From assembly GCA_964436545.1 (NCBI GenBank), contig CAYTCJ010000005.1, positions 12,713-76,712 on the forward strand: a stretch of 64,000 nt of DNA, written 5' to 3'. Source of the stretch: an uncultured Candidatus Saccharibacteria bacterium (GTDB taxonomy: Bacteria; Patescibacteriota; Doudnabacteria; UBA920). Of this stretch, positions 1-29,230 are shown in pieces (the first letter of the stretch is position 1; every line of letters starts with the position of its first letter). The notes beneath the pieces are model-generated. The model did no database searches. It was given only the letters and a program-made list of their open reading frames with translations, and was not told the origin of the DNA. The translations under genes and the position numbers were made by a program.

Positions 1-686
1 TAACGGTTAAAGCCGATACCAATGATTGGGCTTCCGGTGGTGCTTCTAACGCTCAATTTACAGTTGGTTTGAACGCGGCCGCTAACGCTACTCTTCGTGG
101 CGCTCAAAGCCAAGCTTCTATTACCCCAACTGTAACCACTTTTGCTCAGTCTTCTACTACTACAGTGGTAAGATCTACAATTACCGTAACCTCTGTTGAT
201 TCCATCACCAGTCCGGTTGGGGTAAGCGTACAAGCCACTGGCGTGCCAGCGACTGACGAAATTATGGGCATCTTTAAGGTCACTGCTTCCTCTGCAGGCG
301 ATGTAAAGCTTAACAGCATTACTTTGCAACAAGGCGGTACAGCCCCAACTGCGGTTGCCGTGCCTTACACCGTTTACGATGCTAACCAGTACTCCACTGC
401 TAATGGTACAGTCAACTTGACTGGTACCACAGCCGGTGCTCTTACTTTGACCACTGCAAGCGAAATTACAGCCGGTCAAAGCAAGTACTTCGTAGTTAAA
501 GCTTCTACCTCTGCCTTCAACACTGCTGGCACTGGTGCTGCTAAGACCTACGATTTGAAGATTACTGCCTTTAGCTTTACCGATGGCGTAACCACTCCAA
601 GCACTGTTGTTGCCAACTCATCTGATTTCATCAACGTGAGCCACGACACCACTGCTTCCGGTTCCACTGGCGGTAGAACTTACTAA
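1..686 (+). CDS. Partial Ser/Thr/Ala/Gly-rich surface protein; the 5' end lies upstream of the window. Candidate glycosylation substrate.
   Basis: The frame is open from base 3 with no stop, and the track M at 69 is a TTG. The protein is almost devoid of K/R/E/D and has long T/S/A/G/V tracts such as TPTVTTFAQSSTTTVV and TGTTAGALTLTTAS, typical of a cell-surface or pilin-like C-terminal region. A terminator follows. Confidence 0.5.
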   Translation, partial: TVKADTNDWASGGASNAQFTVGLNAAANATLRGAQSQASITPTVTTFAQSSTTTVVRSTITVTSVDSITSPVGVSVQATGVPATDEIMGIFKVTASSAGDVKLNSITLQQGGTAPTAVAVPYTVYDANQYSTANGTVNLTGTTAGALTLTTASEITAGQSKYFVVKASTSAFNTAGTGAAKTYDLKITAFSFTDGVTTPSTVVANSSDFINVSHDTTASGSTGGRTY

Positions 687-746
687 TCTTACAGAGTTTA
701 AATTAAGAGCAATCTTAATTTAATTACTAAGATGGTATAACAAATA

Positions 747-790
747 CCCCCGTTTCTCCTTTTGGAGAAGCGGGGGATTTGTTTTGCTTG
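747..790 (+). terminator. Rho-independent terminator
   Basis: cccccgtttctcc / ggagaagcggggg stem with one G-U pair, followed by tttgttttg. Confidence 0.6.
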
Positions 791-819
791 AAGATCACTT
801 TGGGCATTTTAAAGCATCC

Positions 820-848
820 TTGAAAAGAACAGCTTAATCAAGTATAAT
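820..848 (+). promoter_or_regulatory. Sigma70-like promoter
   Basis: TTGAAA, 17-nt spacer, TATAAT, ending 7 nt before the ATG at 855. Confidence 0.4.
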
Positions 849-854
849 CCCCAT

Positions 855-3083
855 ATGAAAATTACAACAGCTAAAAAATTATTTTTTGCTTTATTGGTCT
901 TGGCTTTGCTTTCGGTTTTTGGGTTGTTTAGGGATTTGGCTTATCCGTTTATTACCAGTAAAGTGTTGTGGTTTCGAAGCGCCGTGCTGTTGGCGTTGCC
1001 GATTTATTTTTATCTGCTCAGTTTGGAAAAATCCATTCGGCCCAATTTAAAACATCCTTTGCATTGGGTAGTGTTGGCTTTTTTTGCCATTAACCTTATT
1101 AGCTCCGTATGGGGGGTAAATTTTCATCGAAGCGTGTGGGGTAATTATGAACGTATGGGGGGAGTGTGGTATTTGGGGCATTTAACGTTGCTGTATTTTT
1201 ATTTGGATGCTTTGGCCAAATACAGTAATTTTAAGTTTCAACAAATTTTAAAACTCTTGGCTCTCTTGGGCGCTTTAGGCGGGTTATATGCGGTACTTAC
1301 CAAACTGGGTTTTCCTGCTTGGCCGTTTCCGGACGATTCTTTGCCGGCTCGGGCTTCCGGGTTTTTTGGAAACCCGATTTTCTTTGCCAGTTTTTTAATT
1401 TTTCCTTTTACTTTAAGTTTATTTTTTCTTAAACAAGCTGAGGACAAAAGAGCGTTTCGGTTTTGGCTTTTGGCATCGGCTTTCAATTTTTTAGGTATTT
1501 ATTTCAGCGCGACTCGGGGAGCGCTTTTGGGGTTATTGGTGGGTTTGGGTTTAGGGTTGTTAGTTTGGGCCTTAATGATTGAAGAAAAAAAATACAAGCT
1601 TTATGGCTTATTAGCCATTGCCGGGAGTTTATTAGTGGTATTAATGTTGTTTGTGTTTAGTGGTGCTTTTGCACCCGGTTCAGTGGTGCGGAGGCTTACG
1701 GATTTTGGCGATTCCAACACTCGGGCGCGTATTTTACAATGGGAGGCGGGACTGAAAGGTTTTAAAGACCATCCGGTGCTGGGGGTGGGGCCGGAAAATT
1801 ATTATGTTATTGGGAATAAATATTTTAACCCCAATATCTACCAATACGACAGAAGCTGGTTCGATAAACCACACAACTATCCTTTAGAAGTTTTACTTAC
1901 TTCCGGATTGTTAGGGTTTCTTGCCTATGTAATCTTAATTGGTATGTCCGTGGGCGGAGCGTATCGGGCTTTAAAGCACCAAATTCTTAGCCGGCTGGAA
2001 TTTGCAATTTTATTAGGCGGAATTACGGCCTACCAAGTTCAAAATTTATTTGTGTTCGATACTGTAAGTGCCAGTATGGCCTTTTATGTATTTTTGGCGT
2101 TTACCGCCTTTTTATGGCAAGCCGACAGAGTGGAGAATAAATCGGGAGAGGTTAAAGCGAGTTCCGAAATGGCCACCTACGGACTTATCCTGTGTGGCTT
2201 AGTGGTGGTTTGGGTTTGGTACATCACCAATTTTTTACCGGCCCAAGCCATGGCTAAATTAAACACCGGGGTATCTATTGGGCTAAGAAATCCGGTAGAA
2301 GCCAGAGAAGGTTTTAAAAATGCTTATCGAGCGGATATGAATTTAGATTTAACCGAAACTGCATCTAAATATGAAGAATTTGCCAGTGAGTTAGCCATTG
2401 TTAATCAAAAACCGGAAGACAGAGCTTTTGTTTTAGAGACTGTAAAAGATGTAATTGCGGTCTTGGAATCGGCATTAAAACAGAATTCCAACGATCCTAT
2501 TTTATGGTTTAAGCTCACAAATATGAAATCGACTTTAAAGCACATTACGCAAGCCGAATACTCTAAGGAGATTGAGGAAGTGGCGTTAAAGTCTGTAAGT
2601 TTGGCGCCGAATCGGGTAGAGCCCAGATATTATTTAGTGCAAGCTTTGCAAGTAAAGCGGGATTTGGACCAGGCGGTTAGGGCCCAAATTGAAGTAATTA
2701 AAATTGACTATGCCAACCCCTTTAATTTTTGGCGCATGGCCTTACTGTATAGAGATTTTGGCGATTTGCCGAGGGCATATAATTTGGCAAGGTTTGCCAG
2801 ACAAAACGGGTATGAGTTTAGAAATTTAGCCGAGGCTCAATGGATGGCCAAATATTATTCCGATTTGAACCAATTTAACGAATTACAAAAAGCTTACGAA
2901 GAGTTAATTAAAAACAATTTGGCGGATTTTCAGACTTATGCCAATTTAGCGACTGTGTATGCTAAGTTAGGGGATAAAGACAAAGCTCGCGCCACGGCGC
3001 TTAAAGTTTTGGAATTGGAACCCAAAGCCAAAGCCGATGTGGAATTGTTCTTGAAAAAACTCAACCTCGGCGAACAGTTTTAA
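855..3083 (+). CDS. Polytopic membrane protein with a Wzy_C (O-antigen ligase/PglL/TfpO-type) domain and a C-terminal TPR region; candidate O-oligosaccharyltransferase
   Basis: There are 10-12 predicted TM helices. The Wzy_C-like core is GNPIFFASF...SATRGALLGLLVGLGLG, with a periplasmic loop FKDHPVLGVGPENYYVIGNKYFNPNIYQYDRSWFDKPHNYPLEVL. The roughly 300-aa C-terminus has TPR-like repeats (LAPNRVEPRYYLVQAL..., ANLATVYAKLGDKDKA). It is a paralogue of the gene at 6337-8475. Confidence 0.7.
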   Translation: MKITTAKKLFFALLVLALLSVFGLFRDLAYPFITSKVLWFRSAVLLALPIYFYLLSLEKSIRPNLKHPLHWVVLAFFAINLISSVWGVNFHRSVWGNYERMGGVWYLGHLTLLYFYLDALAKYSNFKFQQILKLLALLGALGGLYAVLTKLGFPAWPFPDDSLPARASGFFGNPIFFASFLIFPFTLSLFFLKQAEDKRAFRFWLLASAFNFLGIYFSATRGALLGLLVGLGLGLLVWALMIEEKKYKLYGLLAIAGSLLVVLMLFVFSGAFAPGSVVRRLTDFGDSNTRARILQWEAGLKGFKDHPVLGVGPENYYVIGNKYFNPNIYQYDRSWFDKPHNYPLEVLLTSGLLGFLAYVILIGMSVGGAYRALKHQILSRLEFAILLGGITAYQVQNLFVFDTVSASMAFYVFLAFTAFLWQADRVENKSGEVKASSEMATYGLILCGLVVVWVWYITNFLPAQAMAKLNTGVSIGLRNPVEAREGFKNAYRADMNLDLTETASKYEEFASELAIVNQKPEDRAFVLETVKDVIAVLESALKQNSNDPILWFKLTNMKSTLKHITQAEYSKEIEEVALKSVSLAPNRVEPRYYLVQALQVKRDLDQAVRAQIEVIKIDYANPFNFWRMALLYRDFGDLPRAYNLARFARQNGYEFRNLAEAQWMAKYYSDLNQFNELQKAYEELIKNNLADFQTYANLATVYAKLGDKDKARATALKVLELEPKAKADVELFLKKLNLGEQF

Positions 3084-3090
3084 ACCCAAT

Positions 3091-3132
3091 AATCATTCTT
3101 ATATTCTGCAGAATATAAGAATGATTTTGTAT
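3091..3132 (+). terminator. Rho-independent terminator: 17-bp perfect palindrome followed by a T tract
   Basis: aatcattcttatattctg|cagaatataagaatgatt, then ttgtatat. Confidence 0.6.
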
Positions 3133-3206
3133 ATAAGTAACTAGAGTTGATAAAAATTTTCGGTTTGATATACTAATAAAAATTACTAAAATTTAACGAA
3201 ATAAAT

Positions 3207-3515
3207 ATGACAAAGAAACAAAAAATTTGGCTAGGGAATTTTTCAGTATTATTTTTTACTTATCTATTTCCATTATTTATATTTAATAAATATCAAAATA
3301 AAATAAATGATACGAACTTTGTAAAATATTCTGTATTTTTTATTCTATTATGTGGCTCAATATTTTTATTATATTTTAATATAAAAAATTATAACAAAGA
3401 AAAAATTAATAAGTCATTATATATATTTTTTGGACTGTTTGGGGTGTTAGGATTTTTATACTCAATCTCAATATTATTTTTGTTATTTTCATTTAGACAT
3501 GGGATTGGCTTTTAA
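3207..3515 (+). CDS. Small hypothetical three-TM membrane protein lying in an extremely AT-rich islet
   Basis: A 102-aa ORF with three hydrophobic segments. The surrounding 3084-3533 region is over 78% AT, lower in GC than its flanks. Confidence 0.35.
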   Translation: MTKKQKIWLGNFSVLFFTYLFPLFIFNKYQNKINDTNFVKYSVFFILLCGSIFLLYFNIKNYNKEKINKSLYIFFGLFGVLGFLYSISILFLLFSFRHGIGF

Positions 3516-3533
3516 TTTGTTAAGCAAAAATTT

Positions 3534-6332
3534 ATGAAACTAAAAATTGTCAAATTATTAATCTTCCTACTGCTAGTTATCGGTTTTCCTATTCAATCTT
3601 TAGCTCAAACCGCAGACCCGAATGTTTGTAGGGCAATAGATAATCATTCTCCCGTAACTAGTATTACTTACGATTATGGACTTAATGGTTTAGTAAGGTT
3701 TCACTACACTATTCCTTACGATTGGCGAAATTTAGATACTGCTGTTTTGTTAGCTACAGAAAACTGTGATATTTTAGGTGGTAGTTACATTAGTAATTCT
3801 ACTAGTTTTATTGGAGTTAGAAAATTATTAATTCAAGTAGTGGATCACGCTCCGGGCTGGTATGAATTTAGAACTTACGATGAAGATACTGGCTTGCCAT
3901 ACCCAGTCGGGGGCTTAACTCCGTTTTGGCGACCAGTGGTGGGTATTAGTTTTGGCGAAACCGGTTCAGGTCCGGGTAGGGCCTGGGTAGACAGTCCTTT
4001 AGTAAGAGTGAAAGATATTACTCAAGTCGACAAACCTCCGGTTTTAATTGTGCCTGGGGTTTTAGGCACAGAGATGTTTAAAGGAAATGAAAAATTATGG
4101 TTGGATATTAATAGAAATTTAACTGATGTAGGTGATCAATTTATGGATGGAATGCTATTTAATAGCAATTTAATACCAATTAACAATTTGAATTTAGGTG
4201 AAGTTATAAAAAAGAAAACTAAAAATATAGGGGTTGGTGATATAGTATTATTTGATTATACCGACGGTTTAATTAATGAATTTACCTCTCAAGGCTACAC
4301 TGAAGGCAAAGATTTATTTACTTTTCCTTATGACTGGCGGTATGGGGTAAATCAAATCAATATAGAAGCTCTGAAGGCAAAAATTCAAGCTATTGGTAAC
4401 GGTGGTAAAGTAAATGTCGTGGCTCATTCCACTGGAGGACTATTAGTGAAGAAGTATGTAAGGGATAACCCCACCACCCATAACATTAACAAAGCTGTGT
4501 TTGTGGGAGTGCCAAATACGGGCGCGCCTAAAGCGATTAAAGTTTTACTGCAAGGTGATAATTTTGGTGTATTAGGTTTGTCCGATGCAGAAATGAAAAA
4601 ATTGGCACAAAATTTACCCGTAGTTTATGACTTAGCCCCAAGTCAAAAGTACTTTACTAATAAAGGCAGTTTTTATAGGGTCATTGAAACATTATTAAAT
4701 CAGCCCATACAAGACAGAGGCTTAAATTATTCTGAAGCCCGGGCTCGAATGTTAACTCAAAAAGGTGCAAATTTATTAGCGTTTAATAACGCGGAAGCTT
4801 TGCATACTTTAGAGTTTGATAATTACGATTTAAGAACCGCTGGTGTGGATGTATATAATATTGTGGGTTGTAAAGCTTACACCTTAAGCCAAGTGATAGA
4901 ACGTACTTGGCAAAATCTTTCCGGAAATTATTATAGTGAATATTTAATACCAGAAATGCTTCCCGGTGATGGCACTGTACCTTTAGAAAGTGCCACCAAC
5001 TTGCCGGTGGATGAATATAAAAAATATTACTCGTTAAGTTCTGAGCATAGTAAAATGTTGAGTCAGTCCGGGACTAGGCAAAAAATTGTTAATATTATAA
5101 CCGGTTCAAATTTGTCAGTAGGGGATACTATTACTCAAGATGTCTCTAAATGTAAGTTAAATGGCAAAGCTTACAGTGTGTATAGTCCCTTGGACATTTC
5201 AGTTAAGGATAATTTAGGCAATGTGTTAGGTTTTTCTGAAGATGGTAGCTTAGAGAATCAGATTCCAAATGCCAGCTTTGAAGTTTTTGAACATAATAAA
5301 TTTGTATTTTTGCCAGAAGATGAAGGTCAAACTTACCAAATTAACCTGAAAGGCACTGGCGAGGGGACTTTTACTTTCAAAGTAGAGAACGTGGAAAATA
5401 ATCAGACTACCGAGACCCAAGTGTTTAGTAATATTCCAGTTAGTACTAGTTTGCAAGGAACAGTTAATGAAAGTAGTCATCAGGCTATATTAAACTTAGA
5501 TATTAATGGGGACAATACAATTGACCAAGTTGTTCAGCCATCTACAATATTAAACTCAGATGAGTCAAAAGATTTATTACCCCCCATTACCACTCTTGAT
5601 GTAACTGGACAAATGGGTGATAAGGGTTTTTATCGTTCTAATATAACTATCACTTTAAGTTCTCTGGACCCGATTACCTTAGGGCAGGAAATGCAAACTT
5701 CCGGGGTACTAAAAACGCAGTATAATTTAAATCAGCAAGGCTGGGTAGATTATAGTTCTCCATTTGTGTTGGAGAATGAGGGTGATTATACTTTAGAATT
5801 TTTTAGTACCGATAAAGCGGGAAATAATGAATCCGTTCAAACCTTACACTTCATAATTGATAAAACCGCTCCGGAATTGGGAATTAAGTTTAATCCTCAA
5901 ACTAAAGATTTAAGTTTTGTTGGAAAAGATAACCTTACTACTACTTCTAAACTCACTTTACTGGATTTAGATGATAATATTACTGTAAAAGATCAAGCTG
6001 GAAATATTACTGAACTAAAGTTAAAAGAAAAAGGTAGAAAAAAAACTTTGAAAGCGGAAATTAAGGCTTTAAGCTATAATGGAGTTAATCAAGATATAAA
6101 TCCCAATAGTTTAAAAGTTAATTGGCAGACCGATAAACAAGGGCAGTTAAAGGAGTTGCATCAAGCAATTCGTTCTAAAAAAGAATATAATGTAAAAGCA
6201 GAGTATAATAGTAAAATCAACAAAACTAAATTAGAAGGTAAGGATGCCTTGGGGAGAATTAATAAGACTTTAGCGGGGTTAGTATTGCTTAATACCTTTA
6301 CAGATAAAGGAGATTTAAAGTGGGAGTATTAA
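3534..6332 (+). CDS. Secreted 932-aa protein with an LCAT-like alpha/beta-hydrolase (lipase/acyltransferase) domain and a C-terminal Ig-like/adhesin-like region
   Basis: Signal peptide MKLKIVKLLIFLLLVIGFPIQSLAQT. The motif FTFPYDWRYG followed by the nucleophile elbow VVAHSTGGLL (AxSxG, as in LCAT and Bacillus LipA families). The C-terminal half is beta-rich and contains the motif YTLEFFSTDKAGNNES, as seen in bacterial Ig-like surface domains. Confidence 0.6.
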   Translation: MKLKIVKLLIFLLLVIGFPIQSLAQTADPNVCRAIDNHSPVTSITYDYGLNGLVRFHYTIPYDWRNLDTAVLLATENCDILGGSYISNSTSFIGVRKLLIQVVDHAPGWYEFRTYDEDTGLPYPVGGLTPFWRPVVGISFGETGSGPGRAWVDSPLVRVKDITQVDKPPVLIVPGVLGTEMFKGNEKLWLDINRNLTDVGDQFMDGMLFNSNLIPINNLNLGEVIKKKTKNIGVGDIVLFDYTDGLINEFTSQGYTEGKDLFTFPYDWRYGVNQINIEALKAKIQAIGNGGKVNVVAHSTGGLLVKKYVRDNPTTHNINKAVFVGVPNTGAPKAIKVLLQGDNFGVLGLSDAEMKKLAQNLPVVYDLAPSQKYFTNKGSFYRVIETLLNQPIQDRGLNYSEARARMLTQKGANLLAFNNAEALHTLEFDNYDLRTAGVDVYNIVGCKAYTLSQVIERTWQNLSGNYYSEYLIPEMLPGDGTVPLESATNLPVDEYKKYYSLSSEHSKMLSQSGTRQKIVNIITGSNLSVGDTITQDVSKCKLNGKAYSVYSPLDISVKDNLGNVLGFSEDGSLENQIPNASFEVFEHNKFVFLPEDEGQTYQINLKGTGEGTFTFKVENVENNQTTETQVFSNIPVSTSLQGTVNESSHQAILNLDINGDNTIDQVVQPSTILNSDESKDLLPPITTLDVTGQMGDKGFYRSNITITLSSLDPITLGQEMQTSGVLKTQYNLNQQGWVDYSSPFVLENEGDYTLEFFSTDKAGNNESVQTLHFIIDKTAPELGIKFNPQTKDLSFVGKDNLTTTSKLTLLDLDDNITVKDQAGNITELKLKEKGRKKTLKAEIKALSYNGVNQDINPNSLKVNWQTDKQGQLKELHQAIRSKKEYNVKAEYNSKINKTKLEGKDALGRINKTLAGLVLLNTFTDKGDLKWEY

Positions 6333-6336
6333 ATAT

Positions 6337-8475
6337 ATGTTAGATAATAAAAATAAATTGAGGTTTAATGTTTTTTTCGGTTTGGTGTGTTTGGCGTTAA
6401 CTTCACCTTTGTGGGTGAGTAAACAATTATTATTCCCTTATGTCACCACCAAGGCATTTGTTTTGCGTTTGGCCATAGAGTTGGCTTTGCCATTTTATGC
6501 GTATTTTCTACTTACTCATCCTCAGAGTCGACCGAACCTTAAAAGTCCGCTAAATTTTGCTGTGGTTGGATTTGTGTTAACCACTTGGCTTTCTGCATTT
6601 TTTGGAGAAAATCTAATTAAGAGTGTTTTTGGTAATTTTGAAAGAATGGGGGGAGCCTTGTATGTGACTCATTTAGCCTTATTGTATTTTTATATTATTT
6701 TTTTGGGTCAAACGGCCTCCAAATATTTATTTCGCATACTGCAATTTTTTATTTTGGTTAGTTTTGTAATTTGTACCAATGGCGTGGTGGGATGGCTAGG
6801 CGGACCAACTTTGGTGTTGGATCCCAGCTTACCGGGGAGGGCTTCTTCCACTTTGGGCAACCCAATTTATTTAGGGGCTTTTGCCATTGTGCCCATGTTT
6901 TTGTGTTTATATTTTTTGTTAAACCAGTCTAAACTTTCCAGTAAAATTATTTATGGAGTGTTAGCGGTTATCTTTTTTTTAGCTATGATGCAAAGTGGAA
7001 CCAGAGGGGCTTTGGTTGGTGTGTTATTGGGTTTGGCGGTAGGAGTAATTTTATATATATTTTTAAACACCAGTAAAGCATTAAAGCAAAAGGGGATTAT
7101 TTTTATTGTAATTTGTGGTGGATTTTTTGGTTATTTGTTTTGGCAACCGCAAGTTTTACCCACAGGTAGCACGGTGCGGAGGATTTTTGAGTTGCGCGAT
7201 ACCAATACCAGCTCCAGAATTATTCAATGGCAAACGGCTTTGCGCGGGTTTAAAGATTATCCGTTCTTGGGAGTCGGACCGGAAAATTATTACGTGATTT
7301 CCAACAAATATTACAATCCCGAAAGCTACCAATACGACAGAAGCTGGTTTGATAAGCCTCATAACTATCCTTTAGAAATTTTAGTTACCGGCGGAATCAT
7401 TAACTTTATTTTTTATGTCGGGATAATTCTTTTTACCCTGAAGATTTTATTGGCGTCTTATAAACAAGAGTTTTTATCTTTATTGGAATTTTGTGTTTTG
7501 GTCGCCGGGTTGGTAGCTTATTTGGGGCAAAATATGTTTGTTTTTGATACCGTACCAACCAGTGTGGCCTTTTATGTGGTAATTGGCTTGGCCGGGGTTT
7601 TGGATATTTTAATGCAGAAAAAACAAAAATCAACTGTTGTTATTCCGGATTTACCTAAAATTTTTCGGTTCTCCATGGTAGGCCTAGTATTTTTGGTAGT
7701 CGTATATAGCGGTTATTATTTAAATTGGCTACCCATTTGGGCCTCTAAAAATACGAATTATGGATTAGCTTACGCTTCGATAAATTTAGAAAAATCGGTT
7801 GGGTATTTTAACGATGTGATTAATAATCAATTTAATTTTGATGTATCTGAATCTGCATCAAAATATGCCGATGCCTTATTGCCAGCTTTAACTCCAGAAG
7901 TGCTAGCTAAATTAGATAAAAGTAAACTGCTCCAGTATTTGCAATCTTTGGAAGAATATTTAGCTTTGGCGAGTTATAAATCGCCTTTGGATCCGATTTT
8001 ATTACAAAAATTAGCCAGTGTGAGATTTCAACTGGCCTATTATTCCAATTCTTTGAATTTATTCAATAGCGCAATTACAGATTTAGAACAAGCGGTGGCT
8101 TTGGCTCCTACCCGAGTGGAGGCCAGAGAAGCTTTGGCGCAAATTCGTATTTTTCAGGGTCAAGATGCAGAAGCCTTAAAGTTAGTGGAAAAAAACGTAG
8201 AATACGATAAAGCTTATTTTAAAACACGTTGGTTGTATGCCACCTTATTAAATAAAAATAAGCAAATAGAAAAAAGTATAGAACAAGCTTCGGTAGCTTT
8301 AGCATTAGGTTATGAGCCACATACTTTAGGTGAAGTAAAATGGCTAATTGACGCGTTGGTACAAAAACAAAATTTTAAACAAGTGGTAGCTGTGTATGAA
8401 TTGGTTAATAAGGCAAATAAATTAAGTTTAGAAGACCAACAGCAGTTGTTGAAATATCGAGCTAGGGAGCAGTAG
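6337..8475 (+). CDS. Second Wzy_C (O-antigen-ligase-like) membrane protein with a C-terminal TPR region; paralogue of 855-3083
   Basis: The same architecture and near-identical loop FKDYPFLGVGPENYYVISNKYYNPESYQYDRSWFDKPHNYPLEIL. It carries the SGTRGALVGVLLGL motif and a TPR-like C-terminus (LAPTRVEAREALAQIRIFQG...). Confidence 0.7.
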   Translation: MLDNKNKLRFNVFFGLVCLALTSPLWVSKQLLFPYVTTKAFVLRLAIELALPFYAYFLLTHPQSRPNLKSPLNFAVVGFVLTTWLSAFFGENLIKSVFGNFERMGGALYVTHLALLYFYIIFLGQTASKYLFRILQFFILVSFVICTNGVVGWLGGPTLVLDPSLPGRASSTLGNPIYLGAFAIVPMFLCLYFLLNQSKLSSKIIYGVLAVIFFLAMMQSGTRGALVGVLLGLAVGVILYIFLNTSKALKQKGIIFIVICGGFFGYLFWQPQVLPTGSTVRRIFELRDTNTSSRIIQWQTALRGFKDYPFLGVGPENYYVISNKYYNPESYQYDRSWFDKPHNYPLEILVTGGIINFIFYVGIILFTLKILLASYKQEFLSLLEFCVLVAGLVAYLGQNMFVFDTVPTSVAFYVVIGLAGVLDILMQKKQKSTVVIPDLPKIFRFSMVGLVFLVVVYSGYYLNWLPIWASKNTNYGLAYASINLEKSVGYFNDVINNQFNFDVSESASKYADALLPALTPEVLAKLDKSKLLQYLQSLEEYLALASYKSPLDPILLQKLASVRFQLAYYSNSLNLFNSAITDLEQAVALAPTRVEAREALAQIRIFQGQDAEALKLVEKNVEYDKAYFKTRWLYATLLNKNKQIEKSIEQASVALALGYEPHTLGEVKWLIDALVQKQNFKQVVAVYELVNKANKLSLEDQQQLLKYRAREQ

Positions 8476-9616
8476 TGGTTAGTTGAGAATAAATTTTTTG
8501 GGTTTCAGTTAGCATTTGGGTTTGGGAAAAATTCTGGGCTCTTTGCTCAGCTAAGTTAGCCAATTTTAGTTGCTCATTGGGGTTATTTATTAAATACTTT
8601 AGGGCCTCTGCTAAGGCTGGGGGTTGGTTAGCTTCTACTAGGATTCCCGCATTGTCCACAGCTTCAGGTATGCCCCCAACTTTAGTGGTAATTATAGGCA
8701 AGCCGGCTTGCATGGCTTCCAAGAGAGTATAGGGGAAACCCTCTTTTCTGGAAGGTAGAATAAAGATATCAAAAGCTTTTAGATAAACAGAAGCGTTATC
8801 AATGCTTCCCGGAGTGAGGACGATGCCTTCCAGTTTTAAATTTTTAATTTTTAATTTTAAATTTTTAAACTCTGGTCCATTGCCAATGAGGACGATTTGC
8901 ATTTTAGATTTTATTTCATTTGGCATTAAAGCCATGGCCTGCATTAGCGTATCTAAACCTTTGGTTTTGTAAAAACCAGCTATGGTGCCAATAATAAGTT
9001 TATTGGCGGGTAATTTTAAAAAACTTTGTGCCTCAGACTTTGGCAGAAAATTAATTGGTTCAATGCCATTGTAAATGGTGGAAATTTGATGTGGGGAAAT
9101 TAGTCGGTACTTTTGGGCAGAATGTTTATCGGCATTGGATACGCAAATTATGTAATCACGAAAGTGACTGGCCAGTTTTTCCGCAATTATGTAAAATATT
9201 TTTTTAATTAAACTCATCGGTTCGTTAAAAACAAATCCGTGTGCAGTAAAAATTGTTTTAGTTTTAAGCCCAATGCTGGCAAAACTGCCGAGAATGCCGG
9301 CTTTAGAAGAGTTTAGGTGAAGAATGTCGGGATTATAATTTTTAATTAGTTGGCGGATTTCCCCAATGGCCAAAATATCATGCCAAGGATTTAGGTTTCG
9401 TTTAAGATGCTTGATTGGGAAGGTGGTGATTTCTATTTTTTTTGCATCATCAAAAAGTGTTTGGGTGTCTATGCTCTTCGAGTCTGAGCCTGAGGGTTCG
9501 TTCCTCAGAGTCGCATGACCGGAAGCAATTGCACCTTTAAAATGTTTGGCTAAAGCGAGCGTGTATTTTTGCGCTCCACCTCTGTCCGCTTGAGTAATTA
9601 AATATAAAATTTTCAT
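8462..9616 (-). CDS. GT4 family (GT-B fold) glycosyltransferase
   Basis: It has the EGFPYTLLEAMQAGLPIITTKVGGIPE motif (the EX7E region of GT4) and an N-terminal MKILYLITQADRGGAQ. Confidence 0.7.
   Translation of the reverse strand: MKILYLITQADRGGAQKYTLALAKHFKGAIASGHATLRNEPSGSDSKSIDTQTLFDDAKKIEITTFPIKHLKRNLNPWHDILAIGEIRQLIKNYNPDILHLNSSKAGILGSFASIGLKTKTIFTAHGFVFNEPMSLIKKIFYIIAEKLASHFRDYIICVSNADKHSAQKYRLISPHQISTIYNGIEPINFLPKSEAQSFLKLPANKLIIGTIAGFYKTKGLDTLMQAMALMPNEIKSKMQIVLIGNGPEFKNLKLKIKNLKLEGIVLTPGSIDNASVYLKAFDIFILPSRKEGFPYTLLEAMQAGLPIITTKVGGIPEAVDNAGILVEANQPPALAEALKYLINNPNEQLKLANLAEQRAQNFSQTQMLTETQKIYSQLTTTAP
8834..8869. repeat. Imperfect tandem heptanucleotide repeat (ttttaaa/tttttaa, five units) inside the GT4 CDS
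   Basis: ttttaaatttttaatttttaattttaaatttttaaa, which encodes KNLKLKIKNLKLE on the minus strand. Confidence 0.5.
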
Positions 9617-9692: not shown

Positions 9693-10703
9693 ATGAAAAA
9701 AGCTTTAATTACTGGGATTACCGGACAAGATGGCAGTTTTCTCGCGGAATTATTACTTCATAAAGGTTACGAAGTCCATGGTGTAATTCGCCGAAGTAGC
9801 GTATTTAATACTGAACGGATAGAGAGTATTTATCAAGACCCGCATGAGCTACACAGGCGGTTGTTTTTGCATTATGGGGATTTGTCGGATGCTTCTAATT
9901 TAAATCAAATTCTGAAAACGGTTAAGCCTAATGAGATATATAATTTGGGCGCACAAAGCCACGTGCGAGTAAGTTTTGAAATTCCTGAATACACTGCCAA
10001 TGTAGACGCTTTGGGGACTTTAAGACTGCTAGATGCCGTAAGAGAAAATGGACTTACCACTAAAATTTATCAGGCAGGGAGCAGTGAAATGTTTGGTAAA
10101 GTTTTAGAAACCCCGCAAAGCGAAACCACGCCGTTTAATCCGGCTTCGCCGTATGGGGCAGCCAAAGTTTTTTCTCATCATTTATGTAAAGTTTACCGCG
10201 AAGGTTACAATATGTTTATTTGCAATGGGATCTTGTTTAACCACGAATCGCCAAGGCGGGGGAAAACTTTTGTCACGCGAAAAATTACCACCGGCATTGC
10301 GAGTATTTTAGCCGAAAAAACTGATAAGATTTATTTAGGTAATTTGGAAGCCAAGCGCGATTGGGGTTATGCTCCGGAATATGTGGAAGCTATGTGGTTA
10401 ATGCTTCAGCAAGACAAGCCTGATGATTTTGTAATTGCCACGGGCGAAACGCATACCATTAAAGAATTTTTAGAGACAGCGTTTGCGTTAGTTGGCATTA
10501 AAGATTGGGAAAAGTATATTGGGATTGACCCCAAGTACTACAGGCCGGTGGAAGTGGATATTTTGCAAGGCGATTACACCAAAGCCAAACAAATTTTAAA
10601 CTGGCAACCCAAAACCACTTTTAAGGAACTAGTAAAAATTATGCTGGAAGCCGACTTAAAAGAAGCCGGAGTTGGTGCGCATATGTTAAATTCTAAAAAT
10701 TAA
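9693..10703 (+). CDS. gmd: GDP-mannose 4,6-dehydratase
   Basis: N-terminal [30 protein letters not shown], plus [18 protein letters not shown] and [11 protein letters not shown], canonical Gmd signatures in an extended SDR. Confidence 0.85.
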
Positions 10704-10770
10704 ACCCTAAATAAGAATTGAATTATAAAAATAAACCATTTGTTTATAAAGTTTAGGGTTTATTTTTGTT
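10702..10770 (+). terminator. Putative terminator: aaaccctaaa...tttagggttt stem with a large loop, then T-run
   Basis: Inverted repeat at 10702-10711 / 10752-10761, followed by tatttttgttt. Confidence 0.3.
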
Positions 10771-10808
10771 TAGTTGTATAGAGTTTAGTCTTTAGAATTT
10801 ATATTACT

Positions 10809-11582
10809 ATGAAACTAATCTCATTAAATACCTGGGGCGCTACACAGGGGCAAATTTTTTTTGATTATGTAAAAGAACAGGCCAAAACTACGGATATTTT
10901 TTGTTTTCAAGAAATTTTTTCTGCTCAGGAGCCGTCACCGAAACTTTCATCTGGCGCTCGTTGTTTTTTATTTCAGGAGCTGGTAACGCTTTTACCCGGT
11001 TTTAAAGGTTATTTTGCCCCCCGTAGTCAAGGTTGTGACTTTACCGGTAAAGTTGATTTTGCTTTAGAGTATGGGCTCGCAGTCTTTGTTAAAGACCACT
11101 TGGAGCAACCCGAGCATTTTATAACTAATTTGCTGGAAGATGATCAAGAACCTACCATAGAAAGAAAAGTTATCGCTCAAATAATTAAGTTTAAAATCCA
11201 CAATAATTCTTTGAGTGTTATTAATTATCACGGGCCGGCTCAGCCGGGCCATAAATTGGATACACCATTAAGACTGGCTTGCTCTAAGTTTTTAAAAGGG
11301 GTATGGGAAAAAGCCAATTCCAATCATAAAATTCTTTGTGGAGATTTTAACTTAATGCCAGCTACTGAAAGTATAAAAATCTTGGAAGGTTGTGGAAAAA
11401 ATTTAATTTCCGTTTTTAATATCCAAAATACTCGGAATGAAATCTCTTGGGCCAAATACCAGAATCGGCAAAGTTTTGCGGATTTTACTTTTGTATCTTC
11501 CTTAGTTAAGGTAAAGGATTTTACCGTGCCATATAATTTAGTTTCCGACCATTTACCCATGGAGTTGGAGTTTGCAATATGA
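10809..11582 (+). CDS. Endonuclease/exonuclease/phosphatase (EEP) family protein
   Basis: ISLNTWG...IFCFQEI...CGDFNLMP...VSDHLPMELEF, the typical EEP catalytic motifs. Confidence 0.5.
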   Translation: MKLISLNTWGATQGQIFFDYVKEQAKTTDIFCFQEIFSAQEPSPKLSSGARCFLFQELVTLLPGFKGYFAPRSQGCDFTGKVDFALEYGLAVFVKDHLEQPEHFITNLLEDDQEPTIERKVIAQIIKFKIHNNSLSVINYHGPAQPGHKLDTPLRLACSKFLKGVWEKANSNHKILCGDFNLMPATESIKILEGCGKNLISVFNIQNTRNEISWAKYQNRQSFADFTFVSSLVKVKDFTVPYNLVSDHLPMELEFAI

Positions 11583-12652
11583 TTAACGTACTTTTTTGTG
11601 GCCTGAAAAATGAATATGGTAAATTAGAGGCGGGGTTGTCTTTTGAGTACCAAAATTTTTACTCAGTGCTTAAAAATATGGCCGGAGTAAATTGTGAGTT
11701 ATTTGCCATAGATGAGGTTATGCGAGAAAAGGGGAGAGAAGCCATGAATCATGCTTTAATCCGGCAAGTTGAGGACAAGCAGTATGATTTATTGTTTTGT
11801 TTTTTGTTTACCGAGGAGCTGAAAAAAAGCACGATTCGGTTTATTACCGAAAAAACCAAAACTTTAACTTTTAATTGGTTTGCCGATGATCATTGGCGGT
11901 TTCCCATTTATTCTAAGTATTGGGCGCCGTTTTTTACCAAAGTTTCCACCACCGATTCTTTAGCTGTGGCTAAATATAAAGCCATGGGTGTGGAGGTAAT
12001 TAAAACTCAGTGGGGAGCCAATACCCATTTATATAAACCCTTCAGTAATCAGCAGTCAGTAAATCAGCCAGCAGGCGATAATTACCACATTACTTTTGTG
12101 GGAAAAAATTATGGCAATCGTTCACAATATATTAACAGTTTAAAATTAGCGAATTTGCCAGCCGAAGGTTACGGGGGAGGGTGGCCTTCGGGCAGGGTGA
12201 ATTTTGAACAAATGCTGGAGATTTTTTCCCATTCCAAAATCAATTTAAATTTTACCGAAAGCTCGTTAGAATGGAAAAAAGAATTGGTAAAGTTGTTGGT
12301 TAAGAAAGAACTGGGTCGCTATAAATTCAGCGGGCATAATATTATTCAAAATTTACAAGCTTTAACCGGAAAATTAAGAAGGCAAATTAAGGGGCGAACT
12401 TTTGAGGTGCCCGCTTGTGGCGGGTTTTTATTAACCGGTCATGCGGACAATTTGTCAGAGTATTATGTAGCGGGTAAGGAAATTGTCAGTTTTACCAATA
12501 CCAGTGATTTAATTGAGAAGTGCCAATATTATTTAGCCCATGAAGCAGAACGTCAGAAAATTGCTCAAGCCGGTTATGAGCGGACTGTAAAAGAGCATAG
12601 TTATGAACACAGATTCAAACAAATTTTTTCGGCTTTGGGACTAAAAATCTAA
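11579..12652 (+). CDS. CgeB-like (Glyco_trans_1_2 / DUF3880-type) glycosyltransferase-like protein
   Basis: The C-terminal RTFEVPACGGFLLTGHADNLSEYY...ERQKIAQAGYERTVKEHSYEHRFKQI resembles the spore-maturation CgeB C-terminal domain. Confidence 0.45.
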   Translation: MINVLFCGLKNEYGKLEAGLSFEYQNFYSVLKNMAGVNCELFAIDEVMREKGREAMNHALIRQVEDKQYDLLFCFLFTEELKKSTIRFITEKTKTLTFNWFADDHWRFPIYSKYWAPFFTKVSTTDSLAVAKYKAMGVEVIKTQWGANTHLYKPFSNQQSVNQPAGDNYHITFVGKNYGNRSQYINSLKLANLPAEGYGGGWPSGRVNFEQMLEIFSHSKINLNFTESSLEWKKELVKLLVKKELGRYKFSGHNIIQNLQALTGKLRRQIKGRTFEVPACGGFLLTGHADNLSEYYVAGKEIVSFTNTSDLIEKCQYYLAHEAERQKIAQAGYERTVKEHSYEHRFKQIFSALGLKI

Positions 12653-12718
12653 TTTGGAATTTTGCGTCGATAATGTTATAATCAAGTGATAAAAATTATT
12701 TAACCATTAAAATTTTCT

Positions 12719-13690
12719 ATGAAAAAAGCCATTATAAGTGGAATTACCGGACAGGACGGGTCGTATTTGGCGGAACTACTTCTCTCTAAGGGGTACGAAG
12801 TGCATGGGATTATGCGCCGACTATCTTCGTTTGCCTCTACTCGGATTGACCATTTAATTAATCATAATTCTAATTTGCATACTTACCACGGAGATTTAAC
12901 CGATAACGCCTCCATTGCCGGTTTGATTGCCGATGTCAAGCCCGATGAATTTTATAATTTGGGCGCCATGTCGCATGTTAAAGTGTCTTTTGAGATTCCT
13001 CAATATACTTTGGAAACCAATGCAGTGGGAGTTTTAAATGTTTTGGAAGCGATTAGAAAGTTTTCGCCACACACTAAATTTTATCAAGCTTCCAGCTCGG
13101 AAATGTTTGGCGTGCCGGGCGTGCCGGCGCCTTTTAATGAAACCACACCCATGATGCCTCAAAGTCCCTATGGGGTGGCAAAATTAGCCGCCTATCATTT
13201 AACAAGGCAATACCGAGATGGGTATGGTCTTTTTGCGACTACCGGGATTTTGTTTAATCACGAAAGTCCCAGACGGGGAGGCACTTTTGTAACTAAAAAA
13301 GTTTCAAAAGCAGTGGCCAGAATTAAACAAGGATTACAAAAAGAATTGGTGTTGGGTAATTTAGATGCCAAACGCGATTGGGGTTGGTCTCCGGAATTTG
13401 TGGAGGCGATTTATTTAATTATGCAACATTCTAAGCCCGATGTCTTTGTTGTCGCCACCGGAGAAACGCACACGATTAAAGAGTTTGTGGAAGAAGCGTT
13501 TAAGTATGTAGGCCTTAATTGGCAAGATTATATTAAGATCGATGAAAAATATAAAAGGCCCAACGAAGTGCCTTTGCTACTCGGCGATGCTACTAAAACC
13601 AAGCAAGTTTTAGGTTGGGAACCCAAAATGAAATTTAATGAGATTGTCCACGCCATGGTGGATTATGATTTACAACACTTAAATGATTAG
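12719..13690 (+). CDS. gmd: GDP-mannose 4,6-dehydratase, second paralogue
   Basis: [59 protein letters not shown]. Confidence 0.8.
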   Translation: MKKAIISGITGQDGSYLAELLLSKGYEVHGIMRRLSSFASTRIDHLINHNSNLHTYHGDLTDNASIAGLIADVKPDEFYNLGAMSHVKVSFEIPQYTLETNAVGVLNVLEAIRKFSPHTKFYQASSSEMFGVPGVPAPFNETTPMMPQSPYGVAKLAAYHLTRQYRDGYGLFATTGILFNHESPRRGGTFVTKKVSKAVARIKQGLQKELVLGNLDAKRDWGWSPEFVEAIYLIMQHSKPDVFVVATGETHTIKEFVEEAFKYVGLNWQDYIKIDEKYKRPNEVPLLLGDATKTKQVLGWEPKMKFNEIVHAMVDYDLQHLND

Positions 13691-14072
13691 TCAAGTTAAA
13701 TTTGGTAAACAGGTTTTGGCGCGGGTGTATGATTTTGCCGATTTGTCGTTTGGAACTTTTCCTGTTACGTCTCCTCAGGAGTCTTTGCAGGTGTTACTCA
13801 TGAAAAGGCAAAAAGGGCATGTAGTAACTAAACACATGCACAAAAAAATTAAGAAGTTTACTGAGCAACCCGCAGAGGCTTTAGTGGTAATTAAAGGTTT
13901 ATTAACCGCTAAACTTTTTAATCGACAAGGAAAATTTGTAAAACAGGTTAAAGTTAAGCCCGGGCAATGTTTGTTAATTATCGACGGAGCCCATGAGGTG
14001 ACTATTTCCCAAACAGCATGCGTGTTTGCCTTTAAGGATGGCCCTTTTGTGGAAGATAAAATTATTTTTTAA
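13683..14072 (+). CDS. Hypothetical small protein, possibly cupin-like
   Basis: A 129-aa ORF running from the gmd stop to the methyltransferase start. It has no clear motif, although the H-x-H (KHMHKK) is cupin-like. Coding is supported only by its length and context. Confidence 0.3.
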   Translation: MISQVKFGKQVLARVYDFADLSFGTFPVTSPQESLQVLLMKRQKGHVVTKHMHKKIKKFTEQPAEALVVIKGLLTAKLFNRQGKFVKQVKVKPGQCLLIIDGAHEVTISQTACVFAFKDGPFVEDKIIF

Positions 14073-14079
14073 TAATTCT

Positions 14080-15291: not shown

Positions 15292-15397
15292 AAGCCGAGA
15301 TCGTGGATTTATTTATGAAACTTATTAATTTATTAAAATTTTATAATCATTAATTTTAAAGCAATCGTGATTTCGATCGCGATCTGCTTCTAACAGG

Positions 15398-15847: not shown

Positions 15848-15856
15848 AGTTGTTGT

Positions 15857-17483: not shown

Positions 17484-17566
17484 AGTAATGACAAAATTGA
17501 AAAAAATGAACTGGAAAATTAATTTTTGTTCATTTCCGTCGCTTTTGTCATTTATGTCAATTTTTT

Positions 17567-18361: not shown

Positions 18362-18363
18362 TT

Positions 18364-20530: not shown

Positions 20531-20556
20531 TTATTAAAGCGGTAAATTTTAACGGG

Positions 20557-21786: not shown

Positions 21787-21790
21787 AAAA

Positions 21791-22873: not shown

Positions 22874-22891
22874 CTTCATAAATCGGGTTTT

Positions 22892-23992: not shown

Positions 23993-24007
23993 AGTTTTTT
24001 AAAGTAT

Positions 24008-25674: not shown

Positions 25675-25680
25675 TTGAAA

Positions 25681-25716
25681 GCCCCGCCCTTTGCTGACAA
25701 AGAGCGGGGCTTTAAA
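25681..25716 (+). terminator. Rho-independent terminator
   Basis: gccccgccctttg / caaagagcggggc stem followed by tttaaatttt. Confidence 0.55.
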
Positions 25717-25745
25717 TTTTCAGTTAGAAATGGTATTATGGGATT

Positions 25746-26894: not shown

Positions 26895-26895
26895 T

Positions 26896-29229: not shown

Positions 29230-29230
29230 T

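What the first reader, a model, noticed from the sequence alone, without database searches (positions are those of the whole stretch)
1..8475. Candidate protein O-glycosylation module: a Ser/Thr-rich surface protein followed by two Wzy_C+TPR 'O-antigen-ligase-like' paralogues (PglL/TfpO-type O-oligosaccharyltransferases?)
The first gene encodes a surface-type protein made almost entirely of T/S/A/G/V tracts. Directly downstream, two paralogous polytopic proteins carry a Wzy_C core (GNPIF/Y..., SxTRGAL) and a near-identical periplasmic loop (GVGPENYYVI.NKY.NP..YQYDRSWFDKPHNYPLE.L), each extended by a roughly 300-aa TPR region. In Pseudomonas (TfpO/PilO) and Neisseria (PglL), Wzy_C-family enzymes transfer undecaprenyl-linked glycans onto Ser/Thr of pilins and other periplasmic proteins. 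The adjacent glycan locus has an initiating transferase, GTs and a Wzx flippase but no Wzy polymerase, Wzz or ABC exporter, which fits a short oligosaccharide made for protein modification. The type IV pilus assembly operon sits at the distal end of the same locus. The TPR extension, possibly a substrate-recognition module, is not a feature of characterised PglL or TfpO.
Basis: partly seen in the sequence, partly recalled or inferred. Interest (0 to 1): 0.8.

Follow-up and report, generated by a model that had tools for sequence, protein, structure and literature searches.

The report
Surface-protein glycosylation module of Patescibacteria
A large, Ser/Thr-rich, wall-anchored surface protein sits next to two WaaL-fold glycan transferases carrying an outward-facing TPR domain and a big sugar-synthesis locus; this gene order is conserved across the uncultured Patescibacteria and most likely glycosylates their main surface protein, as in Gram-positive S-layer systems.

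Summary
Window 3-686 is the 3' end of a T/S/A/G/V-rich gene. Genes 855-3083 and 6337-8475 are true paralogues (36% identity, E 2e-124), each with a Wzy_C core and about 260 aa of TPR.

The upstream protein is not a pilin. Its full-length orthologue (1203 aa) has a Sec signal peptide, a conserved three-repeat wall-anchor domain and an S/T-rich body.

The order surface protein, Wzy_C-TPR (one or two copies), GT4 on the opposite strand, then glycan genes recurs in 34 of 47 testable loci, down to 25% enzyme identity. It persists across anchor-domain swaps and across both Wzx and ABC export routes.

The best reading (about 0.55) is an en bloc O-oligosaccharyltransferase for the adjacent surface protein, organised like the Geobacillus and Paenibacillus S-layer glycosylation clusters. 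A lipid or wall-polymer ligase role is not excluded. I rate it a new variant of a known kind, of moderate interest.

The parts
3..686 (+). 3' end (227 aa) of the gene for a large secreted, wall-anchored, S/T-rich surface protein ('Surf'); the 5' part lies outside the window
   Evidence: Open frame with no Pfam hit; 30.7% S+T. It is 96% identical to the C-terminus of a 1203-aa orthologue (L001:6139-9750). That orthologue has a Sec signal peptide, a three-repeat N-terminal domain, a P/T/G linker and a beta-rich body. The family has at least 340 members, all 'hypothetical'.
747..776 (+). Intrinsic-terminator-like hairpin (13-bp stem, 9 G-C pairs, T tail) ending the surface-protein transcript
820..848 (+). 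Near-consensus sigma-70-type promoter (TTGAAA-17-TATAAT) immediately before the ATG of paralogue A
   Evidence: consensus match only
855..3083 (+). Paralogue A: Wzy_C/WaaL-fold glycan transferase (12 TM) + TM13 + extracytoplasmic TPR superhelix, 742 aa
1473..1931 (+). Wzy_C core of paralogue A (aa 207-359): TM7-9 and the external catalytic loop with R221, R292, P307-x-x-G310-x-G312 and H340
   Evidence: residue spacing matches E. coli WaaL R215/R288/H338 and PglL R224/R298/P313/G316/G318/H349 as listed in PMC3643930
2163..3080 (+). TM13/stalk helix (aa 437-478) and TPR domain (aa 479-742) of paralogue A, placed outside the membrane by topology counting
   Evidence: Helix list of the AF2 model. 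TPR hits to consensus TPR, OGT and SPINDLY TPR domains. 14 positions are at least 90% conserved.
3207..3515 (+). 102-aa ORF with three predicted TM segments, conserved just upstream of the LCAT-like gene in related loci
   Evidence: L004; L012
3534..6332 (+). 932-aa secreted LCAT/PGAP1-like alpha/beta serine hydrolase (AHSTG motif) with an OmpL47-type beta-barrel/Ig-like domain; accessory member of the module
   Evidence: Pfam LCAT 2.5e-17; NCBIfam barrel_OmpL47 8.1e-17. Present in L001, L004 and L005 and in at least 8 of 69 genome loci.
6337..8475 (+). Paralogue B: same architecture, 712 aa, 36% identical to A; all family-invariant residues kept (R223/R294/H342)
   Evidence: In a rough NJ tree, A and B fall in different, old paralogue clades.
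8462..9616 (-). GT4 glycosyltransferase on the opposite strand, the most conserved downstream neighbour
   Evidence: Pfam Glycos_transf_1 3.8e-35. Present on the opposite strand just downstream in 40 of 55 testable loci.
9693..46152 (+). Glycan biosynthesis locus: NDP-sugar dehydratases, epimerases and reductases, two C-methyltransferases, an aminotransferase, a split transketolase, about 7 further GTs, a Wzx flippase (18364-19923) and the initiating Bac_transf phosphoglycosyltransferase (44842-46152)
46253..51723 (+). Type IV pilus assembly genes pilB, pilC, pilM and two single-TM genes; positional neighbour only, no pilin gene in the window
   Evidence: PilB also follows the locus in L043 and L047.

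Best explanation
The window holds a conserved cell-surface glycoprotein module of Patescibacteria (CPR).

Shown or strongly supported steps. A phosphoglycosyltransferase (44842-46152) and about 8 glycosyltransferases are encoded in the locus and would build a rare-sugar oligosaccharide on a polyprenyl phosphate carrier. A Wzx-type flippase (18364-19923) is present to move it to the outer face of the membrane. The two Wzy_C-TPR proteins have the WaaL fold and the R/R/H active-site residues on the external face. They are therefore enzymes that take a polyprenyl-diphosphate-linked glycan and transfer it en bloc to an acceptor.

Inferred steps. The acceptor is Ser/Thr (possibly Tyr) of the large Sec-exported surface protein encoded just upstream. 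That protein is held on the wall by its conserved N-terminal anchor and exposes a variable, S/T-rich body. The extracytoplasmic TPR superhelix, joined through the extra TM13 helix, would act as the protein-docking module that presents the acceptor to the catalytic loop. The two ancient paralogues would divide the work, either by acceptor (major surface protein versus other secreted proteins or pilins) or by glycan donor.

The organisation mirrors the S-layer glycosylation (slg) clusters of Geobacillus stearothermophilus and Paenibacillus alvei.

For: Topology: 12 TM helices plus a 13th put the TPR domain on the same side as the catalytic loop.

Substrate candidate: the upstream protein's orthologue has a Sec signal peptide and 26-31% S+T.

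Linkage: a homologue of this protein lies directly upstream, on the same strand, in 34 of 47 loci with enough flank. It is also upstream in L001, L004, L005 and L006. L077 and L078, at about 26% enzyme identity, have large unannotated proteins in the same position; only L077's was compared with Surf, and the match was weak (23% identity, E 5e-4). 27 contig lengths are shared between the two top-120 hit lists.

The linkage follows the S/T-rich body, not the anchor. In Azambacteria-type loci the upstream protein keeps the body, but its N-terminal domain is PG_binding_1 or another repeat type. Because the anchor can be a peptidoglycan binder, the locus glycan is not needed as the anchor's ligand.

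Not a polymerase: three loci with Wzm/Wzt ABC export keep one copy of the enzyme, and copy number is unrelated to export route.

No LCP ligase, Wzz or other candidate ligase is encoded in the 45-kb locus.

Precedent: the predicted S-layer O-OTases WsaB and WsfB are Wzy_C proteins inside glycan clusters beside the S-layer gene. Their TPR is either fused (WsfB) or encoded just upstream (WsaA) (PMC2943079; WsfB role also described in 10.1101/2020.05.20.105809). Stand-alone TPR genes sit between the surface-protein gene and the enzyme gene in L004, L006 and L077. Substrates of TfpO, TfpM and PglS are typically encoded next to the enzyme (PMC12645811).
Confidence: 0.55

Rival explanations
1. The Wzy_C-TPR proteins ligate (and perhaps also polymerise) the glycan onto a non-protein acceptor. 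This could be a membrane glycolipid, in the manner of the lipoteichoic-acid ligase TacL, or a wall-linked secondary cell-wall polymer, as proposed for WpaA/WpaB of Bacillus anthracis. The polymer would coat the cell or help hold the surface protein in place, and gene linkage would reflect a shared envelope-assembly pathway rather than an enzyme-substrate pair.
For: The fold and catalytic residues are those of WaaL, a ligase with a lipid acceptor. B. anthracis has two paralogous clan-CL0499 proteins, WpaA and WpaB. Their depletion disturbs S-layer assembly, and they are proposed to polymerise or ligate the S-layer-anchoring polymer (PMC6030368). The surface protein has a conserved three-repeat N-terminal anchor with weak structural similarity to endolysin wall-binding domains, and this anchor module recurs in other ORFs directly upstream of the enzyme genes. 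A conserved gene core (GT4, Gmd, EEP, GT1_2) could make a conserved glycan element. The TPR domain has conserved positions that would fit a conserved partner.
Against: The linkage persists when the anchor is replaced by PG_binding_1, which binds peptidoglycan itself. The glycan gene content and even the export route vary between loci, while the anchor is the most conserved part of the protein. Neither paralogue matches PF13425, the WpaA/B family. No LCP ligase or teichoic-acid genes are found in the window. A fused extracytoplasmic TPR domain of about 260 aa has no obvious role with a lipid acceptor.
Confidence: 0.25
2. One paralogue is the Wzy polymerase of a Wzx/Wzy-dependent pathway and the other is the ligase, so the product is a long polymer (capsule or S-layer glycan chain).
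For: Pfam Wzy_C covers both polymerases and ligases. There is no other polytopic candidate polymerase in the locus. The paralogues are ancient and are never sisters within a genome, which implies non-redundant roles.
Against: Both copies keep an identical catalytic loop and the same TPR architecture. No Wzz is present. Six of seven related Wzx loci have only one copy, and three ABC-route loci, which need no polymerase, still keep one.
Confidence: 0.07
3. At least one paralogue is a pilin-specific O-oligosaccharyltransferase (TfpO/TfpM-like) serving the type IV pilus encoded at the far end of the locus. This would resemble Acinetobacter, which has one pilin-specific and one general enzyme. It is compatible with the best explanation for the other paralogue.
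Against: No pilin gene or class III signal motif is found in the 64-kb window. The gene next to the enzyme is a Sec-type surface protein in most loci. PilB adjacency is seen in only 2 of 69 loci.
Confidence: 0.1

Closest known systems
S-layer glycosylation (slg) clusters of Gram-positive bacteria with the predicted O-oligosaccharyltransferases WsaB (Geobacillus stearothermophilus NRS 2004/3a) and WsfB (Paenibacillus alvei)
   Same: A Wzy_C-family transferase sits inside a glycan cluster (Bac_transf initiating enzyme, NDP-sugar genes, GTs, Wzx or ABC exporter) beside the gene for the major wall-anchored surface protein. The TPR is fused (WsfB) or encoded just upstream (WsaA). The host is monoderm and lacks LPS (PMC2943079).
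   Different: The phylum is different (Patescibacteria). The architecture is fixed at about 740 aa, with a 13th TM helix and a TPR superhelix of about 260 aa rather than 'a TPR motif'. There are usually two ancient paralogues. The surface-protein family is unrelated and unannotated, with its own anchor domain instead of SLH.
Gram-negative O-oligosaccharyltransferases PglL, PglS, TfpO/PilO and TfpM
   Same: Wzy_C core; Arg/Arg/His residues and the P-x-x-G-x-G element with PglL-like spacing; the substrate gene is often adjacent (TfpO, TfpM, PglS); two enzymes per genome are known in Acinetobacter (PMC3643930, PMC12645811).
   Different: No PglL_A or Wzy_C_2 domain. The adjacent protein is not a pilin. 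The large TPR domain is extra.
WaaL O-antigen ligase (cryo-EM structures 7TPG/7TPJ)
   Different: 15% identity, with no sequence-level hit by phmmer or profile search against the PDB. Not in an LPS core locus. By established knowledge the host group lacks lipid A-core. TM13 and the TPR domain are extra.
WpaA/WpaB (B. anthracis secondary cell-wall polymer) and TacL (pneumococcal lipoteichoic-acid ligase)
   Same: Clan-related polytopic ligase/polymerase-like proteins in monoderms; WpaA/B are a paralogue pair tied to S-layer assembly (PMC6030368; TacL from my own knowledge).
   Different: No match to PF13425. Those proteins have no TPR fusion. No LCP or teichoic-acid genes are in the window.
TPR-bearing protein glycosyltransferases (OGT, SPINDLY; eukaryotic TMTC O-mannosyltransferases, the last from my own knowledge)
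   Same: A TPR superhelix joined to a glycosyltransferase is used to select protein substrates. The TPR domain here is most similar to consensus TPR, OGT and SPY TPR domains.
   Different: The catalytic domains are unrelated (GT-B for OGT). This is an analogy of mechanism only.

Membership tests
Wzy_C / O-antigen-ligase-like superfamily (Pfam PF04932, WaaL fold) | Significant match to the Wzy_C profile | tested here: met
   77.8 and 76.0 bits against a cut-off of 31.7 for the two paralogues
Wzy_C / O-antigen-ligase-like superfamily (Pfam PF04932, WaaL fold) | 12-TM WaaL-type fold with a large external loop between TM9 and TM10 | tested here: met
Wzy_C / O-antigen-ligase-like superfamily (Pfam PF04932, WaaL fold) | Conserved Arg, Arg and His needed for activity (E. 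coli WaaL R215/R288/H338; PglL R224/R298/H349) | tested here: met
   R221, R292 and H340 are invariant in 64 sequences and present in paralogue B. The equivalence rests on matching spacing to the residues listed in PMC3643930, not on a direct alignment with those proteins.
Bona fide WaaL (LPS O-antigen ligase) | Gene lies in an LPS core (waa) locus and the organism makes lipid A-core | tested here: not met
   No lpx or waa genes are in the 64-kb window; the neighbours are a surface-protein gene and a glycan locus. All named relatives are Patescibacteria, a group known to lack LPS (my own knowledge). The whole genome could not be checked.
PglL / PglS class O-oligosaccharyltransferases | PglL_A (PF15864) and Wzy_C_2 domains flanking Wzy_C | tested here: not met
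   Neither family is listed at E<=0.1 for either paralogue; the criteria come from PMC3643930 and PMC12645811
PglL / PglS class O-oligosaccharyltransferases | Residues conserved in PglL but not WaaL (G316, G318 after P313) | tested here: inconclusive
   P307-x-x-G310-x-G312 is invariant, with the same spacing from the second Arg. The other PglL-specific residues (H400/E404/P406) have no counterpart.
TfpO / TfpM pilin-specific O-oligosaccharyltransferases | Encoded next to the pilin gene it modifies | tested here: not met
   The upstream protein has a Sec-type signal peptide and is about 1200 aa. No class III signal motif is found in any frame of the window.
Gram-positive S-layer O-oligosaccharyltransferases (WsaB/WsfB type, slg clusters) | Wzy_C enzyme with a fused or adjacent TPR, inside a glycan cluster next to the major surface-protein gene | tested here: met
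   criteria from PMC2943079
Gram-positive S-layer O-oligosaccharyltransferases (WsaB/WsfB type, slg clusters) | Specific sequence relatedness to WsaB/WsfB | not tested
Gram-positive S-layer O-oligosaccharyltransferases (WsaB/WsfB type, slg clusters) | The neighbouring protein is O-glycosylated and forms a lattice | not testable with these tools
   Requires glycoproteomics and cryo-EM of the organism
WpaA/WpaB-type polymer polymerase/ligase (PF13425) | Match to PF13425 | tested here: not met
   Not listed at E<=0.1
Wzy O-unit polymerase | Present only with Wzx-dependent export and usually with a Wzz chain-length regulator | tested here: not met
   The enzyme is kept in 3 loci with Wzm/Wzt export, and no Wzz is found
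IctB family (TIGR00947) | Score above the NCBIfam cut-off | tested here: not met
   54.6 and 42.8 bits against a cut-off of 366.4

The most novel reading that the evidence does not exclude
The Wzy_C-TM13-TPR proteins would be a fifth, Patescibacteria-wide class of O-oligosaccharyltransferase. Its fused extracytoplasmic TPR superhelix would dock secreted proteins, and its conserved partner would be the previously unrecognised major envelope (S-layer-like) glycoprotein of these ultra-small episymbionts. The ancient paralogues would split substrates (surface protein versus pilins or other secreted proteins), and the hypervariable glycan island would set host or phage specificity.
Probability: 0.35. 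Interest if true: 0.65.

Novelty: new variant of a known kind. Interest (0 to 1): 0.5.

Why it matters
Patescibacteria are a large share of bacterial diversity, are almost entirely uncultured and live attached to host cells, yet the composition of their envelope is essentially unknown. This analysis identifies a deeply conserved candidate for their main surface protein: at least 340 members, no Pfam domain, all annotated 'hypothetical'. It also ties that protein to a fixed-architecture WaaL-fold enzyme family (1,252 clusters at 50% identity with E<=1e-30) and to a variable glycan island. This yields a concrete, testable model for how these cells build and diversify their surface. If the enzymes do transfer glycans to proteins, they would also be new candidates for bioconjugate glycoengineering, with a built-in protein-docking domain.

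Tried and rejected
- Sequence searches of the PDB with the single protein and with the 64-sequence profile found only TPR proteins, not WaaL. The relationship to WaaL is visible only at fold level.
- The afdb50 structure library was unavailable. I therefore could not survey annotated structural neighbours or find WsfB-like proteins outside Patescibacteria.
- The WaaL structure paper (PMC9884178) was not held. The catalytic-residue comparison rests on PMC3643930 instead.
- Literature searches for O-antigen ligase, S-layer or glycosylation in Patescibacteria/CPR returned nothing relevant.
- The IctB bicarbonate-transporter reading was rejected because scores were far below the cut-off.
- The pilin reading of the upstream gene was rejected.
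- The polymerase reading was down-weighted.
- The NJ tree of paralogues has no support values and is only indicative.
- Counting shared contig lengths is only a proxy for co-location. The tblastn synteny count is the firmer figure.


Full report
**What is in the window**

Window 1-8475 contains, on the + strand:
- the last 227 codons of a gene running in from the left edge (3-686);
- a strong terminator-like hairpin (747-776) and a near-consensus promoter (820-848);
- a 742-aa gene (855-3083);
- a 102-aa three-TM ORF (3207-3515);
- a 932-aa gene (3534-6332);
- a 712-aa gene (6337-8475).

The fragment is 63.6% T+S+A+G+V and 30.7% S+T, and it has no Pfam match. The 742-aa and 712-aa proteins both match Wzy_C (77.8 and 76.0 bits, cut-off 31.7) and several TPR families.

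Two corrections apply. The paralogues are separated by the small membrane ORF and by a secreted LCAT/PGAP1-like serine hydrolase with an OmpL47-type domain. The surface-protein gene also looks like its own transcription unit.

**The rest of the window**

From 8.4 to 46.2 kb lies a glycan locus. It contains:
- a GT4 on the opposite strand;
- GDP-mannose-dehydratase-like enzymes, RmlC- and RmlD-like enzymes, two C-methyltransferases, a DegT aminotransferase and a split transketolase;
- about seven more glycosyltransferases;
- one Wzx-type flippase (18364-19923);
- a Bac_transf initiating transferase (44842-46152).

A hydropathy scan found no further polytopic protein. No Wzz, ABC exporter or LCP ligase appeared among ORFs of at least 120 aa. 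pilB, pilC, pilM and two single-TM genes follow. No class III (pilin) signal motif exists in any frame of the 64 kb.

**The enzymes**

An AlphaFold2 model of paralogue A, built on a 64-sequence alignment, is very confident (pLDDT 93.4, pTM 0.90). It shows twelve TM helices, a large loop between helices 9 and 10 (residues 268-341), a long 13th helix (437-478) and an all-helical repeat domain (480-738).

In the alignment, R166, R221, R292, D337, H340 and E345 are invariant, and all are present in paralogue B. R221, R292 and H340 have the same spacing as the three residues required in E. coli WaaL (R215/R288/H338) and conserved in PglL (R224/R298/H349). The element P307-x-x-G310-x-G312 has the spacing of PglL P313/G316/G318 (PMC3643930).

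Counting helices from the external catalytic loop places the TPR domain outside the membrane, on the same side as the active site. This placement is an inference from the model.

The PglL_A and Wzy_C_2 domains that mark PglL and PglS are absent, as is PF13425 (WpaA/B). The IctB model scores far below its cut-off.

**How common the enzyme is**

The indexed search gave at least 235 hits, almost all 730-760 aa, with source names from Patescibacteria and Candidatus Doudnabacteria. The exhaustive search of 1.84 billion cluster representatives gave 1,252 clusters with E<=1e-30. The best 150 are mostly collinear over the full length. Ten of the most distant of these (25-30% identity) were looked up. 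The five that carry a source name are labelled O-antigen ligase family or TPR protein, and where an organism is given it is Patescibacteria or Parcubacteria. This is a large family, so far seen only in Patescibacteria, with an unusually fixed architecture.

Many contigs carry two copies. In a rough NJ tree the two copies from one genome are never sisters, which suggests an old duplication with retained, non-redundant roles.

**The upstream protein**

In a related contig (L001, enzyme 68% identical) the gene upstream encodes a 1203-aa protein whose last 227 residues are 96% identical to the window fragment. This protein has four parts:
- a Sec-type signal peptide;
- an N-terminal domain of about 190 aa made of three repeats of roughly 60 aa;
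- a P/T/G-rich linker;
- a long, beta-rich, S/T-rich body.

It is not a pilin. The family has at least 340 members of 1150-1220 aa, none of them annotated. Column conservation falls from 0.71-0.80 in the N-terminal domain to 0.33-0.37 at the C-terminus, while S+T rises from 0.17 to about 0.30. That is the pattern expected for a cell-proximal anchor and an exposed variable part.

**Linkage**

I fetched 69 loci from species-representative genomes using the enzyme profile and scanned them by tblastn.
- A homologue of the surface protein lies directly upstream on the same strand in 34 of 47 loci with at least 4.5 kb of upstream sequence.
- A GT4 lies on the opposite strand just downstream in 40 of 55.
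- Two enzyme copies occur in 21 of 69.

The same order appears in metagenomic contigs L001, L004, L005 and L006. It also appears in L077 and L078, at about 26% enzyme identity. There the upstream proteins are 1306 and 1346 aa with no Pfam hit. Only L077's was compared with Surf, and the match was weak but collinear.

Three details matter for interpretation.
- In the distant loci the upstream protein shares the S/T-rich body but not the anchor. The linkage therefore follows the body.
- Three loci export the glycan by a Wzm/Wzt ABC transporter and still keep the enzyme, and copy number is unrelated to the export route. The enzyme is therefore a ligase, not a dedicated polymerase.
- A stand-alone TPR protein lies between the surface-protein gene and the enzyme gene in L004, L006 and L077.

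**Interpretation**

What is well supported is that these are WaaL-fold enzymes that transfer a polyprenyl-diphosphate-linked glycan, made by the adjacent locus, to an acceptor on the outer face of the membrane. The acceptor is inferred.

I favour Ser/Thr of the adjacent surface protein (confidence 0.55), for four reasons:
- the deep and body-specific linkage;
- the fact that the anchor can be a plain peptidoglycan binder, so the glycan is not needed as the anchor's ligand;
- the absence of any other ligase in the locus;
- the close match to Gram-positive S-layer glycosylation clusters.

In those clusters the predicted O-OTases WsaB and WsfB are Wzy_C proteins beside the S-layer gene, with a fused TPR motif (WsfB) or an adjacent TPR protein (WsaA) (PMC2943079). 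The TPR superhelix would dock the protein substrate, by analogy with OGT.

The main rival (0.25) is ligation to a lipid or wall polymer. An example is the WpaA/WpaB pair of B. anthracis, which is tied to S-layer anchoring (PMC6030368). The conserved positions in the TPR domain and the recurrence of the anchor module next to enzyme genes keep this rival alive. A polymerase-plus-ligase split (0.07) and a pilin-specific role for one paralogue (0.10, compatible with the main model) are less likely.

The core idea, a protein O-glycosylation module, is reasonable and is now backed by comparative evidence, but it is still unproven. The comparison to PglL and TfpO is not the best one: the PglL signatures are absent and there is no pilin. 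The closest known system is the Gram-positive S-layer glycosylation cluster. The statement that a TPR extension is unknown in characterised enzymes is contradicted by the S-layer literature. What differs here is its size (about 260 aa), the extra TM helix, and its constancy across a whole phylum-level group.

**Novelty and score**

No paper in the searchable library discusses this family or a surface glycoprotein in Patescibacteria. The mechanism proposed is a known kind. The architecture, the paralogue pair, the new surface-protein family with swappable anchors and the phylum-wide conservation make it a new variant of that kind. Interest is moderate (0.5). It would not astonish a glycobiologist, but it gives CPR biology a concrete, testable model of the cell surface.

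Noticed in passing
window 52682-55296 (after tRNA-Arg 52183-52259 and tRNA-Lys 52397-52472): Aspartate-semialdehyde dehydrogenase and aspartokinase-ACT genes lie in an island of 58-67% GC within a genome of about 36% GC. This points to recent horizontal acquisition or a chimeric assembly. No flanking direct repeat of at least 14 nt was found.
   Followed up: partly
window 3534-6332 and 3207-3515: A 932-aa secreted LCAT/PGAP1-like serine hydrolase (AHSTG motif) with an OmpL47-type beta-barrel domain, preceded by a 102-aa three-TM ORF, sits between the two Wzy_C-TPR genes. It recurs in the same module in L001, L004, L005, L012 and others. Its role (lipid scavenging, or acyl transfer to the surface protein or glycan?) is unknown.
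   Followed up: partly
L001:6139-6840 and homologues (N-terminal ~30-225 aa of the surface protein); also L014:14865-15407, L023:9235-9549, L027:7747-8361, L037:3905-4510: A three-repeat domain of about 190 aa with no Pfam match is the most conserved part of the surface protein. It also occurs in other ORFs directly upstream of Wzy_C-TPR genes and is exchanged for PG_binding_1 in some lineages. It is a candidate new cell-wall-anchoring domain of Patescibacteria.
   Followed up: partly
window 10809-11582: An endonuclease/exonuclease/phosphatase-family gene is a conserved member of the core order surface protein, Wzy_C-TPR, GT4, Gmd, EEP, GT1_2 in many loci. This is an unusual enzyme class for a glycan cluster.
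   Followed up: no
window 15398-15847: A 149-aa ORF matches only the C-terminal part of a polysaccharide-synthesis (flippase) domain and has no predicted TM segment. It is probably the remnant of a second flippase gene.
   Followed up: no
window 14026-15291, 20494-21786, 32439-34168, 27643-30226: Two TylC3-like sugar C-methyltransferases, a split transketolase, an APH-like kinase and a GatZ-like protein lie inside the glycan locus. Together they suggest branched-chain or otherwise rare sugars.
   Followed up: no
window 57412-61646 (- strand): A copper-handling cluster: a cupredoxin-like protein, a DsbD_2 membrane protein with an HMA domain, a P-type ATPase with HMA, and a DUF305 protein.
   Followed up: no
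window 56658-57377: A 239-aa secreted, extremely K/E-rich, predicted coiled-coil protein with a T/S-rich tail and no family match.
   Followed up: no
L077:3011-4937 and L078:3185-5115: In distant Parcubacteria, an ECF sigma factor and a DUF5667 protein lie directly upstream of the surface-protein gene. This hints at dedicated regulation of the module.
   Followed up: no
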